A DNA stretch of 64,000 nucleotides from an uncultured Alphaproteobacteria bacterium (GTDB lineage Bacteria; Pseudomonadota; Alphaproteobacteria; UBA11222): assembly GCA_947085465.1 (NCBI GenBank), contig CAMTWQ010000025.1:7691-71690 (forward strand). Reading direction: 5' to 3'. The notes beneath the pieces were generated by a model. That model had not been told where the DNA came from. It saw only the letters and a list, made by a program, of their open reading frames with translations, and did not search any database. A program made the translations under genes and the position numbers. Shown here piece by piece: positions 26,775 to 30,118 of this stretch. Positions within the stretch are counted from its first letter, which is position 1. Every line of letters starts with the position of its first letter.

Positions 26775-26851
26775 CGGAGTGTAGCTCAGCCTGGTAGAGC
26801 ACTGCCTTCGGGAGGCAGGGGCCGCAGGTTCAATTCCTGCCACTCCGACCA
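26775..26851 (+). tRNA. tRNA-Pro (anticodon CGG)
   Basis: CGGAGTGTAGCTCAGCCTGGTAGAGCACTGCCTTCGGGAGGCAGGGGCCGCAGGTTCAATTCCTGCCACTCCGACCA. The acceptor CGGAGTG pairs with CACTCCG. Anticodon loop is CUUCGGGAG. It has a GGTTCAATTCC T-arm and an encoded CCA. Confidence 0.9.
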
Positions 26852-26936
26852 CCCTTCGCCCTGCGGGCTTCGGGTGGCTTACGCCGCTTGGCGTAAGACG
26901 CACGGAACCGCACCTTGGGCGTAGGAGGGCTGGAGA
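26845..26936 (+). repeat. 92-bp direct repeat A (starts in the tRNA-Pro 3' acceptor end)
   Basis: ccgaccacccttcgccctgcgggcttcgggtggcttacgccgcttggcgtaagacgcacggaaccgcaccttgggcg... is repeated at 29181-29272 with only 3 mismatches, all near the 3' end. Confidence 0.92.
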
Positions 26937-26940
26937 AAAT

Positions 26941-27183
26941 ATGTTCTACGCTTACTTACTGAGAAGCATCAATTTTCCAGATCAGACGTATATCGGCTTC
27001 ACAGAAGATTTGAAAGCACGCATGAGAGCGCACAATGCCGGTGAATCAAAACACACCTCTAAATTTGCGCCGTGGCGAATTGTCTCTTACCACGCCTTTT
27101 CTGACAAAAGAAAGGCTCAGGAATTCGAGTATTACCTCAAGACCGGTTCTGGAAAGGCGTTTGCGAGCAAGCGATTTTGGTAG
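26941..27183 (+). CDS. GIY-YIG nuclease domain protein (80 aa)
   Basis: MFYAYLLRS...TYIGFTEDLKARMRAHN...FEYYLKTGSG has GIY-YIG-like YAY / YIG blocks plus the conserved R and E. Visibly AT-rich. Confidence 0.75.
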   Translation: MFYAYLLRSINFPDQTYIGFTEDLKARMRAHNAGESKHTSKFAPWRIVSYHAFSDKRKAQEFEYYLKTGSGKAFASKRFW

Positions 27184-27220
27184 TGAAAATTTCAAGGCGT
27201 TGTATTTATTATAATTCAAA

Positions 27221-27276
27221 GGTTCAAATCCTCTGAGGTCGACCACCCTACGCCTTCGGCTTCGGGTTACTGGCTT
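27221..27276 (+). repeat. tRNA 3'-end-like stub plus a degenerate copy of the att-like repeat
   Basis: ggttcaaatcctctgaggtcgacca looks like a T-loop, 3' acceptor strand and CCA. It is followed by ccctacgccttcggcttcgggttactggctt, which is related to the start of repeats A and B. Confidence 0.6.
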
Positions 27277-27284
27277 TAAGCTGA

Positions 27285-27767
27285 TTAATCGCACCACGTA
27301 CGGCGGTAACCGGGGCTATTTATCAGATACATATAATTCATGCTTTCTTTGTGGTCGGTTGGGCCGCTTTGTTTTATAAACGCGCGCTGTTCTTCTCCTG
27401 TATATTCCACGTCCGCAGGGTCGCCAATTTTGTAAAGGAAAGGAAAATAGCCTTCTCCGGAAATCCAGCGCCAGCCCGATACATACTGATCGTTCCACAC
27501 AACCCCATCAATATCCGGCTGCACCACAATATCGCCCTGACTGTTTTTAAGCGCTATCTTCTTTTCAAACCATTGCGTCGCGACAAGACGTGTACCATTG
27601 GGCAGTTGCACACAGCGATATTGGTCATAAAAAATACCGTACGGCACGTACAAGACGGCAAGCGTAAAAAAAGCCGTGCAGACGGTCATATACCATCGCA
27701 ACAGACGGCGAAGCGTATTTCGCGCCATGCGCAGCATCAGGCTCATTATACCAGCTTTCATTTTCAT
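27285..27767 (-). CDS. Membrane-anchored small protein (160 aa); candidate immunity partner of the MuF-domain protein
   Basis: N-terminal basic stretch and one TM helix (MTVCTAFFTLAVLYVPYGIFY), then about 110 soluble residues. It lies downstream and co-directional with 27943-28968. Its ATG directly abuts a remnant of a toxin-like 3' end. Confidence 0.55.
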   Translation of the reverse strand: MKMKAGIMSLMLRMARNTLRRLLRWYMTVCTAFFTLAVLYVPYGIFYDQYRCVQLPNGTRLVATQWFEKKIALKNSQGDIVVQPDIDGVVWNDQYVSGWRWISGEGYFPFLYKIGDPADVEYTGEEQRAFIKQSGPTDHKESMNYMYLINSPGYRRTWCD

Positions 27768-27836
27768 TCAGCCTGCCTCCACATGCAATTCTATCCGCCC
27801 CTGGCCAGCGCCATTCGGCAATTACACAAAATGACG

Positions 27837-27983
27837 TTAGAGCAAAAAATTAAGGTACAGCAGGTACAGAGCGGCAAGCGTACAAAAAGCCGTGCAAACG
27901 ATCCTGTACCATCGCCACATCCAGCGAAGCGCAGCCCGCAGCTTACCTGGAAACAGGCTTTTTATACCGGCTCTCATTTTCAT
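27837..27983 (-). pseudogene. Truncated 48-codon paralog of the N-terminus of the 160-aa protein
   Basis: Hand translation gives MKMRAGIKSLFPGKLRAALRWMWRWYRIVCTAFCTLAALYLLYLNFLL*, compared with MKMKAGIMSLMLRMARNTLRRLLRWYMTVCTAFFTLAVLYVPYG. It overlaps the last 41 nt of the MuF-domain gene in another frame. It is below the size cut-off of the ORF track. Confidence 0.5.
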
Positions 27984-28968
27984 TCAGTTTTGCCTCCGCA
28001 TGCAGTTCTGTCTGCCACTGACCGGTGATGGCGTACACCTTGCCGCCGCCATCGGTGATGAACCGCAAAATCTCTGAAACCGCTTCCACGCTGGGCGTGT
28101 CTGGCAAATATTGAGCGATAATTGCCGTAATGCGCCGCAGAATTTCTGGAACCGAATCCGCGTCGGATATCTCGCGCAAATATCGCCTTATATCTTCCGT
28201 GATGCGCCGCAAAATTTCTGCGGCTTTTGCAGGATCGGACGTGCCAAAAATTAATCTATCCCTGATACGTGCCGGGTCGGTATAGGCATCATCAAAGAAA
28301 TATGCGACCGCCCCGTCAATCTTCATCAAGCCATTTTTCTCTGAAACATATCCCTTAAATATACCAGACACAGTGGACCCACCGTGCGGGTATGCGACGG
28401 CTGTAAAATCGTAGCTTATGGAAAATTCGTAGGGAAAATAGCCATTGCCCACCGCTCGCGCCGCATGAATAACTTGTCTGTTGACCTCTTCAAATATTCC
28501 GGCGTCTCCCAGATGATAGGCATAGTGGTTGATGATATCCTGCAAATGGCCAATCCCGGACAACGTCACATCGCCCCCACCCTTAAACGCATGCTCTACG
28601 AAATCCTGTTTTTTCCATTTCGGGCTTGAATCATTCACTTCGCTGGTAAGCGTCTGATTGGCGAATTCGCTCTCGTTACGCACATAGGGTTCTGCTGTGC
28701 ACCGGCAACCATAATCCTCGCCGGGATGCCGCGTCGGCGGTGGGTTATCCCATGCGAACACTTTTCCATTATTTGCCGCATGCGAGGCGCGCACTTTGTT
28801 ATCGCCCCGCGTGCGCCAAATGTAGTGCGTAGTTGGATGTTCCTGCGCTGATGCCTTCTGTTCTTGTGCCGCCGCCTTCAACGACAGTTCAATGGGTACG
28901 CCTTTCCTGAGATACAGATTGAATGCCTTTTTATAGGCTGGGGTATGGATGATATCCGGGAGAGACAT
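27943..28968 (-). CDS. MuF / SPP1 gp7 head-morphogenesis-domain protein with an unrecognised C-terminal region (candidate polymorphic toxin)
   Basis: Residues about 48-95, YIWRTRGDNKVRASHAANNGKVFAWDNPPPTRHPGEDYGCRCTAEP, match the remembered Phage_Mu_F core (W.T..D.rVR.sH..l.G......p...PG....CRC). Residues 100-341 match no family I know and contain three EILR(R/F)IT repeats. Confidence 0.7.
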   Translation of the reverse strand: MSLPDIIHTPAYKKAFNLYLRKGVPIELSLKAAAQEQKASAQEHPTTHYIWRTRGDNKVRASHAANNGKVFAWDNPPPTRHPGEDYGCRCTAEPYVRNESEFANQTLTSEVNDSSPKWKKQDFVEHAFKGGGDVTLSGIGHLQDIINHYAYHLGDAGIFEEVNRQVIHAARAVGNGYFPYEFSISYDFTAVAYPHGGSTVSGIFKGYVSEKNGLMKIDGAVAYFFDDAYTDPARIRDRLIFGTSDPAKAAEILRRITEDIRRYLREISDADSVPEILRRITAIIAQYLPDTPSVEAVSEILRFITDGGGKVYAITGQWQTELHAEAKLNENESRYKKPVSR

Positions 28969-29180
28969 GGCAACTCCTAAAAGGGCGTAAAGCGAATTTG
29001 CTTTATATCAAAACCCAACCCTTTTGTAAAGAACAAAAAGAGAACATGATAAACCATAGGACTATTGGCATGGTCCTGCCCCCCCCATCCACCAGGCGGC
29101 TCTTTTTATCAACCCATTGTATGACATGGATAAAACGATTAGCCGTATATCGGGGCGGGTTCTGAACCCGTCCACCAGGG

Positions 29181-29272
29181 CCGACCACCCTTCGCCCTGC
29201 GGGCTTCGGGTGGCTTACGCCGCTTGGCGTAAGACGCACGGAACCGCACCTTGGGCGAAGGAGTGCTGGAGA
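29181..29272 (+). repeat. 92-bp direct repeat B (partner of 26845-26936)
   Basis: Preceded at 29155-29180 by a T-arm-like stub (gcgggttctgaacccgtccaccagg). Identical to repeat A over the first 77 nt. Confidence 0.92.
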
Positions 29273-29415
29273 GACCGCCTACGGGCTTCGGGTGGCGACG
29301 CCGTAGCGTGCGAAGCCAGAGCGTATCAGAGGCGAATAGTGCAATCCGCAAAATTTTAATAAGTGATAGGATAAACTCCCGCTGATTCGGTTCCGCTGAA
29401 CGAGTGGTGTTTGTG

Positions 29416-29931
29416 ATGCCGTTTCCACACATCGTAGAATCTGTTTATGACCCAGATTTGCTATTCCAGCGCCCGGAACTGATCATGTTCCTTGCCTACT
29501 GGAACGCCAAGCGGGGCGGGCGGCCATTCCCCTGCCGTGACGATTTCGTTCCGCGTGAACTGTTAAGCGTGCTGCCCTCGGTGCACATGTATGACGTTTT
29601 GGATCCGCCCGGCGGCGCGACTGACAAAGGCAAACAATTCCGAGTTCGTCTTATCGGCACCGCATTGAGTAACTTTTTTCCTAAAATGGACATGCGCGGC
29701 ATATACATCGTCGATTGGCCGCGCCCGATGTTTGAGCGGGTGCAACAGCATCTCCTCACTGTGTTGAAGCGCCGGTCGCCTGTGCGCGTCAGTAATCAGT
29801 CAACCAGCATTCCCGGACAAGAGTTTCAGGGATCTGAAGCCTGCTATGCGCCGCTGTCCAGCAATGGCGATGACATCGACATCATTATCGCTGTTTCAAT
29901 ATTATTATTAGAGCAGCCCGCGATTAAGTGA
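29416..29931 (+). CDS. Small PAS-like domain protein (PAS_5 / DUF1457-like)
   Basis: FLAYWNAKRGGRPFPCRDDFVPRELLSVLP...FRVRLIGTAL resembles the alphaproteobacterial PAS_5 family from memory. The start is taken at the ATG four codons into the track ORF. Confidence 0.55.
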   Translation: MPFPHIVESVYDPDLLFQRPELIMFLAYWNAKRGGRPFPCRDDFVPRELLSVLPSVHMYDVLDPPGGATDKGKQFRVRLIGTALSNFFPKMDMRGIYIVDWPRPMFERVQQHLLTVLKRRSPVRVSNQSTSIPGQEFQGSEACYAPLSSNGDDIDIIIAVSILLLEQPAIK

Positions 29932-29999
29932 AGCCACTTCGTGACCCCACTTAATCGCGGAAAGCTGCTCTAACACATTAAAATCTAGAGCAGATTGCT

Positions 30000-30118
30000 C
30001 TAGACCATTTCCTGATCGGATTGAATCAATCCGATCAGGATAAAAATGGTCTAACACATTCACTTAGAGCCTTTCTTGTCCGGTCAGGTTGGTTCAACCT
30101 GACCGGGAAAGGCTCTAG
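30000..30118 (+). repeat. Double-hairpin intergenic repeat, copy 3 (between the PAS-like gene and the DUF4170 gene)
   Basis: Same unit as copies 1 and 2. Preceded by the palindrome ctagagcagattgctctag (29985-30003). Confidence 0.9.

What the first reader, a model, noticed from the sequence alone, without database searches (positions are those of the whole stretch)
26845..29272. Integrase-less 2.3-kb islet at tRNA-Pro, bounded by 92-bp direct repeats and subdivided by tRNA-3'-end-like stubs
The last 7 nt of tRNA-Pro plus the following 85 nt (26845-26936) recur at 29181-29272, with the first 77 nt identical. A degenerate third copy lies at 27239-27276. Both internal boundaries are preceded by sequences that look like a tRNA T-arm plus 3' acceptor strand (27221-27245 ggttcaaatcctctgaggtcgacca; 29155-29180). 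The architecture is tRNA | GIY-YIG module | stub+repeat | partner+MuF module | stub+repeat. This suggests serial accretion at a tRNA att site. The modules are visibly AT-richer than the flanks. No integrase or recombinase is present, so what mobilised them is unclear.
Basis: seen in the sequence. Interest (0 to 1): 0.6.

Follow-up and report, generated by a model that had tools for sequence, protein, structure and literature searches.

The report
Stacked selfish cassettes behind tRNA-Pro
Two small selfish DNA cassettes, a tiny nuclease gene with a folded leader and a toxin/immunity mini-island, sit stacked on the 3' end of a proline tRNA gene, and the "92-bp repeat" is the nuclease's leader, an apparently undescribed element that follows the CCA end of tRNA genes in many bacterial phyla.

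Summary
Windows 26845-26936 and 29181-29272 match at 90 of 92 positions, a degenerate third copy and two tRNA-3'-like stubs are present, the segment is AT-richer than its flanks, and it encodes no recombinase.

This is serial insertion at the tRNA-Pro 3' end: a sister genus has tRNA-Pro followed by the PAS gene after about 200 nt, with nothing between.

The 85 nt after the tRNA are not an island-specific att sequence. They are one copy of a dispersed, structured leader (4-22 model hits per genome in two genera, none in the third). This leader starts directly after the CCA of many different tRNA genes and often precedes a small GIY-YIG nuclease gene. Of 80 homologous nuclease loci from several phyla, 61 have a same-strand tRNA ending at most 400 nt upstream.

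The toxin module is a separate, integrase-less mini-island. Its 222-nt right arm ends in CCGACCA. The arm recurs at tRNA-Pro(UGG) in this genome, in a clean filled/empty pair at tRNA-Pro(CGG) in relatives, and, as its roughly 100-nt inner part, at the edge of a prophage-like cluster of about 28 kb.

I found neither an Rfam family nor a paper for the leader. The closest published system is Ssn. The mechanism of movement is inferred, not shown.

The parts
26775..26851 (+). tRNA-Pro(CGG). Its last 7 nt, CCGACCA, form the shared core of all junctions.
   Evidence: ARAGORN; Rfam tRNA, 67.8 bits.
26845..26936 (+). Left copy of the 92-bp repeat: the 7-nt tRNA end plus the 85-nt GIY-YIG leader.
   Evidence: reference copy of the 92-nt pair; 2 mismatches to the right copy. 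R1 leader model hit at G000:C25:34538-34633, 50.9 bits.
26849..26897 (+). Hairpin 1 (26849-26877: CCA+CCC ttc GCCC tgc GGGC ttc GGGTGG, which includes the tRNA's CCA) and hairpin 2 (26878-26897: CTTACGCC gctt GGCGTAAG).
   Evidence: Sequence. Covariation of the CCA-containing stem across 33 leaders. RNA fold z = -3.5.
26941..27183 (+). 80-aa stand-alone GIY-YIG nuclease gene.
   Evidence: PF01541, E = 2.7e-14. Best solved relatives are UPF0213 BH0048 (1zg2) and SLX1. Copies at 85-86% amino-acid identity follow stub3 on own contig C83 and tRNA-Pro(UGG) in G011.
27220..27245 (+). stub2: a T-arm plus acceptor-like fragment ending in CGACCA. It is the right end of the GIY-YIG cassette.
   Evidence: D3, 77%. 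Homologous stubs lie about 36 nt after the stop codon in related cassettes L057, L059, L063 and L090.
27243..27276 (+).
   Evidence: A 25/25 match to a stub-plus-hairpin on contig C86.
27285..27767 (-). 160-aa protein with a hydrophobic N-terminus and no family match. It is a putative immunity partner of the toxin.
   Evidence: The role is inferred from its position only.
27811..27987 (-). Decayed duplicate of the toxin-3'/partner-5' junction, including a 48-aa orphan ORF at 27837-27983.
   Evidence: D1 repeat: 27595-27771 against 27811-27987, 73%. tblastn 53% over 58 aa.
27943..28968 (-). 341-aa MuF-domain protein (residues 32-92) with an unrecognised C-terminal part. It is a candidate polymorphic toxin.
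   Evidence: PF04233, E = 4.1e-14. TIGR01641. PHROG head-morphogenesis families. Paralogues on C83 and C101.
28969..29187 (+). Right arm of the MuF mini-island. It includes stub3 (29155-29187), the palindrome GGGTTCTGAACCC (29157-29169) and the core CCGACCA (29181-29187).
   Evidence: 83% identical to C83:1656-1878. The inner roughly 100 nt also occur in L142, G009:C6 and G012:C197.
29181..29272 (+). Right copy of the 92-bp repeat: core plus a displaced leader with no ORF behind it.
   Evidence: 98% identical to the leader of G011 tRNA-Pro(UGG). R1 hit, 51.9 bits.
29273..29330 (+). A further partial leader: GACCg followed by a hairpin 1 with an internal deletion.
   Evidence: D5 repeat, 29278-29296; sequence comparison.
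29404..29931 (+). PAS_5 gene, the chromosomal flank. It follows tRNA-Pro directly in genus g3.
   Evidence: PF07310; synteny.

Best explanation
The 2.3-kb segment is two independent small selfish cassettes stacked on the 3' end of tRNA-Pro(CGG).

**Cassette 1 (26852-27245).** This is a tRNA-trailing GIY-YIG unit. It has a structured leader that starts at the nucleotide after CCA, an 80-aa stand-alone GIY-YIG nuclease gene, and a decayed tRNA-3' stub.
- I infer that it has no promoter of its own, is transcribed from the tRNA promoter, and is released by tRNA 3' processing.
- The full-length leader has two alternative folds. One pairs with the tRNA's CCA. The other is a long helix P1 plus a helix P3 that hides the Shine-Dalgarno sequence.
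- I infer that it spreads by nuclease-triggered, homing-like copying into tRNA 3' ends. The tRNA on the left and the stub on the right would serve as homology arms.

**Cassette 2 (about 27246-29187).** This is an integrase-less mini-island carrying a MuF-domain toxin and a presumed immunity gene.
- Its 222-nt right arm ends in CCGACCA and is of phage type.
- I infer that it inserts at the CCGACCA of tRNA-Pro genes using an integrase supplied in trans by a related prophage, or that it is what remains of such a prophage.

**Proposed order of events (inferred).**
1. tRNA-Pro was already followed by a leader.
2. The MuF island inserted at CCGACCA and pushed that leader downstream. That displaced leader is the right repeat.
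3. A GIY-YIG cassette then re-occupied the tRNA end. Its leader is the left repeat.

The 92-bp 'direct repeat' is therefore the 7-nt core plus two copies of the leader.
For: **Insertion at this site.**
- Empty site in genus g3: tRNA-Pro is followed about 200 nt later by the PAS gene.

**The repeat is a dispersed tRNA-trailing leader.**
- In this family the leader sits directly on the CCA of tRNA-Val, Leu, Ser, Gln, Met, Lys and Pro.
- Covariance model R1 finds 4-22 copies per genome in genera g1 and g2 and none in g3.
- 61 of 80 GIY-YIG homologue loci from several phyla have a same-strand tRNA ending at most 400 nt upstream, mostly about 105-150 nt. About ten of the remaining 19 show a tRNA-3' end or stub ending in CCA directly before the leader.

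**The leader is structured.**
- P1 plus P3: 88.8% of cells paired, 64 cells changed on both sides, 0 of 500 shuffles as high, slid controls 40-51%.
- CCA hairpin: 95.1% paired, 35 cells changed on both sides.
- Full-length leaders fold with z = -6.1.

**The GIY-YIG cassette moves.**
- tRNA identity is clustered on the GIY-YIG tree: 17 changes against 39.3 for shuffled labels.
- The ORF is present or absent at orthologous tRNA-Pro loci, and divergent GIY-YIG lineages (51-54% identity) occupy the same tRNA-Pro(CGG) site.
- Cognate tRNA-end duplications follow the ORF in L097 (17 nt exact), L113 and L127.

**The MuF island is a discrete insertion.**
- L142 has tRNA-Pro(CGG) | 1219-bp insert ending in stub3-CCGACCA | the exact sequence that follows the tRNA directly in G009 and G001.
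- The same left and right ends flank the islet at tRNA-Pro(UGG) on own contig C83.
- The same arm bounds a cluster with terminase, portal, capsid, tail and lysozyme genes in G009:C6.

**Direction of the two repeat copies.**
- The left copy's two variant bases match the native junction with the GIY-YIG ORF, as in L063. The right copy's variant bases match the P1 3' strand of a full-length leader, as in G011.
Against: - No cutting, excision or transfer has been observed.
- No integrase was found in the islet, next to any tRNA-Pro in this 69%-complete genome, or in the 42 kb of the G009 prophage-like contig.
- The two leader copies are identical over 77 nt and both lack P3. This fits a recent duplication or a single Campbell-type event at least as well as two separate arrivals.
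- Cognate stubs are clear in only about 5 of 60 loci. Overall the cognate signal is weak (mean score 8.2 against 7.6 for non-cognate).
- Leaders without an ORF outnumber leaders with one, so the leader may have a host function or may move independently.
- Covariation cannot tell RNA from single-stranded DNA.
Confidence: 0.6

Rival explanations
1. A single composite event. A circular molecule carrying GIY - stub2 - immunity - MuF - stub3 - leader arose from an arrangement like that of contig C83. It integrated once, by homologous (Campbell-type) recombination within the leader already present behind tRNA-Pro(CGG). That would create the 92-bp repeat in one step.
For: - C83 shows MuF - stub3 - leader - GIY as a contiguous block, which is a circular permutation of the window's order.
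- The repeat ends exactly where homology between such a circle and a solo leader would end: at CCGACCA on the left and at ctggaga on the right.
- The two mismatches lie at the right end and sort as donor-type in the left copy and recipient-type in the right copy.
Against: - It requires a resident solo leader already nearly identical to the incoming one, including the same P3 loss.
- No circle or junction has been observed.
- The C83 leader in this genome is only 78% identical, so the donor would have to be a different genome.
Confidence: 0.2
2. Intragenomic re-homing. The MuF island split a resident tRNA-leader-GIY unit. The nuclease then cut the now leader-less tRNA end and copied its own cassette back in from 2 kb downstream. 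The old downstream ORF was later deleted, leaving the right repeat.
For: - It explains the near identity of the two leaders without needing an outside donor.
- C83 shows the proposed intermediate: tRNA | MuF island | stub3 | leader | GIY.
- The sequence after the right repeat (GACCg plus a hairpin-1 remnant, 29273-29300) looks like a stub tail plus hairpin. That is what would remain if the ORF and most of a stub had been deleted.
Against: - No remnant of the ORF is left in the right copy.
- It requires an extra deletion with a neat endpoint.
- The nuclease's activity and target are untested.
Confidence: 0.15
3. The repeat is only a REP-like hairpin family or a tRNA trailer/terminator with a host function. 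Under this view the GIY-YIG and MuF genes are ordinary resident genes in an old, fixed region.
For: - Hairpin 1 alone occurs at non-tRNA places. An inverted copy forms the tip of P12 in the RNase P RNA gene on C107, and another lies inside a different palindromic repeat on C95.
- Most leaders have no ORF behind them.
Against: - Empty sites exist in g3, and L142 against G009/G001 is a filled/empty pair.
- The modules occur at different tRNA-Pro genes in different orders.
- The segment is AT-richer than its flanks.
- The leader is absent from a whole sister genus.
- The leader abuts CCA to the exact nucleotide at more than 10 tRNA species across phyla.
Confidence: 0.05

Closest known systems
Ssn family: single-domain GIY-YIG site-specific ssDNA nucleases with cognate hairpin repeats (NTS/SRM); Chenal et al., Nat Commun 2025, PMC11893778
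   Same: - A stand-alone GIY-YIG protein of about 80-95 aa.
- The gene is flanked by a cognate hairpin repeat. Here hairpin 1 lies 5' (26849-26877) and a degenerate copy lies 3' (27243-27276).
- The repeat is also dispersed in the genome.
   Different: - The published SRM search pattern gives no match in the window.
- The copy number is about 10-20 per genome, not hundreds.
- The repeat is part of a leader of about 115 nt with long-range helices, and it starts exactly at the CCA of tRNA genes. The paper's main text does not mention tRNA.
- Membership of CDD family cd10448 was not tested. The best solved relative is a UPF0213 protein.
Phage T4 SegB, a free-standing GIY-YIG homing endonuclease in the tRNA gene cluster (PMC2330249)
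   Same: A GIY-YIG nuclease gene lodged among or behind tRNA genes, and inherited preferentially together with its tRNA flank.
   Different: - According to that paper's abstract, SegB is a phage-encoded site-specific endonuclease; from my own knowledge, it is also a larger protein with a DNA-binding part.
- The protein here is a bare 80-aa catalytic domain. It is chromosomal, has a conserved structured leader, and is placed precisely at the CCA.
tRNA-targeted integrative islands and prophages, and their integrase-less derivatives (cis-mobilisable elements, CIME, of Streptococcus thermophilus; tandem accretion). Cited from my own knowledge.
   Same: - Insertion at a tRNA 3' end.
- Direct repeats that include the tRNA end.
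- Tandem stacking of modules separated by att-like sites.
- No integrase inside the small element.
   Different: - The core identity attributable to the island is only about 7 nt (CCGACCA).
- The long part of the repeat comes from a second, unrelated element.
- No helper integrase has been identified.
MuF polymorphic toxins of temperate phages (Jamet et al. 2017). Cited from my own knowledge.
   Same: An N-terminal MuF/SPP1-gp7 domain, a variable C-terminal part, and a small downstream partner gene with a decayed duplicate (orphan) junction.
   Different: - The gene stands alone in a 1.9-kb islet, not beside a portal gene in a prophage.
- The C-terminal domain matches no known family.

Membership tests
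tRNA-targeted integrative island or prophage remnant (tyrosine-integrase type) | Insert lies at the 3' end of a tRNA gene and is flanked by direct repeats that include the tRNA end. | tested here: met
   CCGACCA plus 85 nt is repeated at 26845 and 29181. The sister islets in C83 and L142 are flanked by CCGACCA.
tRNA-targeted integrative island or prophage remnant (tyrosine-integrase type) | An empty site exists in relatives. | tested here: met
   Genus g3 has tRNA-Pro followed directly by the PAS gene. L142 (filled) pairs with G009 and G001 (empty) at the same junction.
tRNA-targeted integrative island or prophage remnant (tyrosine-integrase type) | An integrase gene lies within or next to the element. 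| tested here: not met
   There is no recombinase ORF in 26852-29187. The genome's five PF00589 genes lie on other contigs, two of them next to tRNA-Gly and tRNA-Phe.
tRNA-targeted integrative island or prophage remnant (tyrosine-integrase type) | The att arm is shared with a complete phage or island that encodes the cognate integrase. | tested here: inconclusive
   The arm bounds a phage structural cluster of about 28 kb in G009:C6, but no integrase was seen in 42 kb. The pattern is absent from viral contigs.
tRNA-targeted integrative island or prophage remnant (tyrosine-integrase type) | An excised circular form or an excision junction can be detected. | not testable with these tools
Ssn-type GIY-YIG ssDNA nuclease with cognate repeats | A single-domain GIY-YIG protein shorter than 150 aa. 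| tested here: met
   The protein is 80 aa, and PF01541 covers residues 2-71.
Ssn-type GIY-YIG ssDNA nuclease with cognate repeats | A cognate hairpin repeat flanks the gene and is dispersed in the genome. | tested here: met
   Hairpin 1 lies 5' and 3' of the ORF. Leader or hairpin copies occur elsewhere in the genome.
Ssn-type GIY-YIG ssDNA nuclease with cognate repeats | The repeat fits the published SRM consensus. | tested here: not met
   The SRM regular expression from PMC11893778 gives 0 matches in the window and matches only 7 of the 80 loci of about 6 kb.
Ssn-type GIY-YIG ssDNA nuclease with cognate repeats | The protein belongs to CDD family cd10448. | not tested
   No CDD is on hand. 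The best PDB match is UPF0213 BH0048. There is no NCBIfam hit.
Ssn-type GIY-YIG ssDNA nuclease with cognate repeats | The protein cleaves ssDNA specifically near the repeat. | not testable with these tools
   This needs a biochemical assay.
Free-standing GIY-YIG homing endonuclease (SegB-like) | A catalytic GIY-YIG domain with conserved residues. | tested here: met
   Y3, Y5, Y17, G19, R27, H31 and E63 are invariant in alignment A1.
Free-standing GIY-YIG homing endonuclease (SegB-like) | An additional DNA-binding domain gives site specificity. | tested here: not met
   The protein is 80 aa in total, so there is no room for a second domain.
Free-standing GIY-YIG homing endonuclease (SegB-like) | The gene is present or absent at the same site among relatives. 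| tested here: met
   The tRNA-Pro(UGG)..parE locus and the tRNA-Pro(CGG) locus both vary in occupancy.
MuF polymorphic toxin | An N-terminal MuF domain with a variable C-terminus and an adjacent small partner gene. | tested here: met
   PF04233 and TIGR01641 cover residues 30-94. Paralogues are 56-60% identical. The partner ORF and an orphan duplicate are present. Toxicity and immunity were not tested.
REP/MITE-like dispersed repeat unrelated to integration | Copies are scattered without a specific link to insertion junctions. | tested here: not met
   Nearly all copies abut the CCA of a tRNA or of a tRNA-like stub. The exceptions are the hairpin-1-only copies on C91, C95 and C107.

The most novel reading that the evidence does not exclude
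The leader plus the 80-aa GIY-YIG gene may be a minimal mobile element of about 0.35 kb, of a kind not yet described in the literature.
- It homes to the nucleotide after the CCA of tRNA genes in many bacterial phyla.
- It borrows the tRNA promoter and the tRNA's 3' processing for its own expression.
- It carries a two-state structured leader. One state pairs with the tRNA's own CCA. The other hides the ribosome-binding site.
- As single-stranded DNA or as RNA, the leader may also be the handle that gives the bare nuclease domain its target specificity, in an Ssn-like way.

If so, stacks of 'stub + leader' behind tRNA genes, as in this window, are fossil records of repeated homing and of competition with tRNA-targeting phages for the same site.
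Probability: 0.4. Interest if true: 0.8.

Novelty: new variant of a known kind. Interest (0 to 1): 0.62.

Why it matters
- It explains a class of puzzling tRNA-flank features as the work of a very small nuclease cassette competing with phage-type islands for tRNA 3' ends. These features are repeats starting at CCA, tRNA-3' stubs and tiny 'UvrC-like' genes.
- The leader is a well-supported structured element that matches no Rfam family. Its two mutually exclusive folds include the tRNA's CCA, which makes it a testable candidate for a new cis-regulatory RNA or nuclease recognition site.
- If the bare GIY-YIG domain takes its specificity from a nucleic-acid structure, it extends the recently found Ssn principle to tRNA genes. 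It may also be useful as a structure-directed nuclease.
- For annotation, 'direct repeats at a tRNA' should not automatically be read as the att sites of one island.

Tried and rejected
- **Rfam.** Scans of the window and of eleven full-length leaders returned only tRNA.
- **SRM pattern.** The published Ssn/SRM regular expression found no match in the window.
- **stub3 pattern in collections.** Viral contigs gave 0 hits. Metagenome contigs gave 2 hits, of which one (L142) was decisive.
- **Integrase search.** I looked in the G009:C6 prophage-like contig and found none. The own genome has integrases only near tRNA-Gly and tRNA-Phe and on C23.
- **Cognate stub test.** I asked whether the stubs after GIY-YIG genes are copies of the cognate tRNA end. 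Only about 5 of 60 are clearly above the non-cognate background. In the tRNA-Pro clade the stub is inherited with the cassette. I therefore dropped the idea that stub2 is simply this tRNA's displaced end.
- **tRNA status of the stubs.** ARAGORN calls none of them.
- **Promoter and terminator scan.** The number of sites is no greater than in shuffled sequence, and no promoter-like site lies between the tRNA and the GIY-YIG start. This is weak evidence.
- **Literature.** Searches found no paper on small GIY-YIG genes trailing bacterial tRNA genes.
- **Protein families.** NCBIfam and PHROGs gave nothing for the GIY-YIG protein or the 160-aa protein.

Full report
**1. The observation**

The repeat is real. 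Windows 26845-26936 and 29181-29272 match at 90 of 92 positions. The first 77 nt are identical. The repeat begins with the last 7 nt (CCGACCA) of tRNA-Pro(CGG), 26775-26851, which is the only tRNA ARAGORN finds in the window.

The degenerate third copy and the two stubs are also there, and none of them is called as a tRNA:
- Third copy: 27220-27254 is 77% identical to 26826-26860, and a hairpin remnant runs to 27276.
- stub2 lies at 27220-27245.
- stub3 lies at 29155-29187.

The segment has GC 0.44-0.49 over most of its length, against 0.58-0.62 in the flanks.

It encodes the following:
- an 80-aa GIY-YIG protein, 26941-27183 (+);
- a 160-aa protein with no family match, 27285-27767 (-);
- a decayed duplicate of the toxin-end/partner-start junction, 27811-27987;
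- a 341-aa MuF-domain protein, 27943-28968 (-).

No recombinase is present.

**2. It is inserted DNA**

The window is contig C25 of a 69%-complete, 124-contig genome from an uncultured alphaproteobacterial lineage.

In a sister genus (g3: G002, G004), ispB is followed by tRNA-Pro(CGG), and the PAS gene follows about 200 nt later. There is no repeat, no GIY-YIG gene and no MuF gene.

In the other genus (g2) the same neighbourhood is rearranged in several ways. In six genomes the tRNA is inverted between ispB and the PAS gene.

**3. What the 85 nt really are**

The sequence after the tRNA is not peculiar to this islet.

In this genome and its relatives, the same element starts at the nucleotide after CCA of tRNA-Val, Leu, Ser, Gln, Met, Lys and Pro. 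It also starts after tRNA-3'-like stubs.

A covariance model of the element finds 4-22 copies per genome in genera g1 and g2, and none in either g3 genome.

Some copies are followed by a small GIY-YIG gene:
- tRNA-Pro(UGG) in G011: 86% protein identity, and its leader is 98% identical to the window's right copy, although the whole tRNA-ORF region is only 77% identical.
- tRNA-Pro(CGG) in G003 and G006: different sublineages, 54% and 51% identity.
- tRNA-Ser(CGA) in G001: 42% identity.
- After stub3 on own contig C83: 85% identity.

**4. The link between this nuclease family and tRNA ends is general**

I scanned one genome per prokaryote species with an alignment of four of these proteins. This returned 80 loci, mostly alphaproteobacterial MAGs but also Verrucomicrobiota, Planctomycetota, Lentisphaerota, Patescibacteria and others.
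- In 61 of the 80 loci a same-strand tRNA ends at most 400 nt upstream of the start codon, mostly 105-150 nt. The tRNAs are Pro, Ser, Leu, Gln, Val, Ala, Arg, Met, Gly and Thr.
- About ten of the other 19 show a tRNA 3' end or a stub ending in CCA directly before the leader, and several others run off a contig edge.
- L086, L113 and L128 show the layout tRNA | insertion | cognate stub | leader | GIY. This is the same layout as the window's right copy and as C83.
- On a tree of the proteins, tRNA identity is strongly clustered: 17 changes against 39.3 for shuffled labels, 0 of 200 shuffles as low. Sublineages therefore keep to one tRNA species and switch only occasionally.

**5. The leader is structured**

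I aligned 33 leaders of 100-127 nt (A2). Two mutually exclusive folds both show compensatory changes.

- *Fold A.* A hairpin whose outer stem is the tRNA's CCA plus three bases, paired with GGNTGG. Examples are CCACCC/GGGTGG, CCAGCC/GGCTGG, CCATCC/GGATGG and CCACGC/GCGTGG. 95.1% of cells are paired, 35 cells change on both sides, and no shuffle reaches the covariation score.
- *Fold B.* The first 11 nt after CCA pair with a segment about 55 nt downstream (helix P1). A second helix, P3 (GCCCTCC...GGAGGGC), contains the Shine-Dalgarno sequence. 88.8% of cells are paired, 64 cells change on both sides, 11 pairs change on both sides, and slid controls give 40-51%.

Minimum-energy folds of full-length leaders give fold B with z = -6.1.

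G-U pairs occur on the sense strand. This fits RNA or sense-strand ssDNA, and the data cannot separate the two.

No Rfam 15 family matches the leader.

Both window copies lack P3. The loss lies between two imperfect 14-nt direct repeats that flank that hairpin. The two mismatches between the copies are exactly the two positions at which those repeats differ:
- The left copy keeps the version that is contiguous with the ORF, as in L063.
- The right copy keeps the version of the P1 3' strand, as in G011.

In the left copy the anti-Shine-Dalgarno strand is gone, so translation may be unrepressed. This is an inference.

**6. The MuF module is a separate mini-island**

Its 222-nt right arm (28969-29187) is 83% identical to C83:1656-1878 and occurs nowhere else in this genome.

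On C83 the order is tRNA-Pro(UGG) | membrane protein (-) | MuF (-) | arm with stub3 ending in CCGACCA | leader | GIY | parE.

A metagenome contig (L142) gives a clean filled/empty pair:
- Filled: ispB, tRNA-Pro(CGG), then a 1219-bp insert whose left end equals that of the C83 islet and whose right end is the arm with stub3-CCGACCA.
- After the insert comes atcttcgcc..., the sequence that follows the tRNA directly in G009 and G001.

So one integrase-less unit of 1.2-1.7 kb sits at two different tRNA-Pro genes in two genera.

The inner part of the arm also bounds a cluster in G009:C6. That cluster has Fic, ParB-like, large terminase, lambda-type portal, capsid, tail tube, tape measure, baseplate hub, holin and lysozyme genes, about 28 kb in all. 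I saw no integrase in the 42 kb of that contig.

The own genome has five tyrosine recombinases, none near a tRNA-Pro.

**7. Most likely history (inferred)**

1. tRNA-Pro(CGG) was already followed by a leader.
2. The MuF island inserted at CCGACCA and displaced that leader. The displaced leader is the right copy.
3. The tRNA end was then re-occupied by a GIY-YIG cassette made of leader, ORF and stub2. Its leader is the left copy.

Two variants fit nearly as well and are listed as rivals:
- one Campbell-type integration of a composite circle through the leader;
- re-homing of the resident, displaced cassette, followed by loss of the old ORF.

The near identity of the two leaders favours a recent common origin. 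The sorting of the two mismatches (donor-type on the left, recipient-type on the right) fits any of the three routes.

**8. Mechanism**

*Shown:*
- the precise placement at CCA;
- the conserved two-state structure;
- conserved catalytic residues;
- presence/absence polymorphism at orthologous sites;
- exact cognate tRNA-end duplications behind the ORF in a few loci: L097 17 nt, also L113 and L127.

*Inferred:*
- transcription from the tRNA promoter, since no promoter-like site lies between the tRNA and the ORF (weak evidence);
- release of the mRNA by tRNA 3' processing;
- nuclease-triggered copying, with the tRNA and the stub as homology arms;
- recognition of a folded nucleic acid by the bare catalytic domain.

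The closest published system is the Ssn family: single-domain GIY-YIG nucleases that cut ssDNA next to cognate hairpin repeats flanking their genes (PMC11893778). The published SRM pattern does not match here, and the paper's main text does not mention tRNA. I therefore say the cassette may work like Ssn, and I do not file it as a member.

T4 SegB (PMC2330249) is the nearest homing analogue.

**9. Novelty and score**

Stacking of integrase-less modules at a tRNA is a known kind of event. MuF toxins and small GIY-YIG nucleases with cognate hairpins are also known. What I could not find in Rfam or in the searchable literature is the tRNA-CCA-anchored, two-state leader with its nuclease gene.

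Other agents of this scan have noted the same element in other genomes. That is not independent evidence, but my own tests agree with theirs.

- Interest: 0.62.
- Novelty class: new variant of a known kind.
- Confidence in the composite explanation: about 0.6.

**10. Limits**

- The genome is an incomplete MAG with no close congeners in the collections.
- Nothing about cleavage, excision, transcription or toxicity has been tested.

Noticed in passing
window 29908-30118: A dispersed double-hairpin repeat lies between the PAS gene and the DUF4170 gene. Near-identical copies are on own contigs C11, C15 and C41 and in several relatives. It is unrelated to the tRNA-trailing leader.
   Followed up: partly
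own genome contig C107 (locus L051, 171-566): The tip of helix P12 of the RNase P RNA gene is an inverted, near-perfect copy of hairpin 1 (CCACCCGAAGCCCGCAAGGGCGUAGGGUGG). The hairpin seems to have entered a structural RNA gene without destroying the Rfam match of 302.7 bits.
   Followed up: partly
loci L016, L017, L018, L021, L022, L023 (relatives G010, G008, G011, G003, G012, G007): In six genomes of the sister genus g2, tRNA-Pro(CGG) lies inverted between ispB and the PAS gene. In G003 its GIY-YIG cassette is inverted with it. This small inversion is centred on the tRNA.
   Followed up: no
window 28052-28220: Three direct repeats with a 72-nt period lie inside the 3' part of the MuF gene (family D4). 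They encode the repeated EILRRIT...YL units near the C-terminus.
   Followed up: no
loci L082 and L107: The leaders are tandemly multiplied between the tRNA-Gln gene and the GIY-YIG start: three copies in L082 and about two and a half in L107.
   Followed up: no
loci L073, L096, L109, L135: These leaders have a permuted order of parts: the P3-like helix comes before the CTTCGGCTGGCTTACGCC segment. They were left out of the covariation alignment.
   Followed up: no
locus L054, 9656-19809 (G009:C6, about 29.6-39.8 kb): Directly after the phage lysozyme gene lies a block of defence-like genes: an HTH/peptidase M78 regulator, an AAA/ABC-type ATPase, a 1358-aa Eco57I-type methylase-nuclease, and a 1107-aa SNF2/PLD helicase.
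   Followed up: no
own genome contig C95, 3794-3932: A hairpin-1 copy is nested inside a different GC-rich palindromic repeat (ccccaccccaacccctccccacgagggggaggg...).
   Followed up: no
own genome contig C101, 11143-12875: Two further MuF-domain genes lie here: one at 60% identity and one fragment. They sit directly downstream of a large ORF. I did not check what that ORF or the surrounding gene cluster encodes.
   Followed up: no
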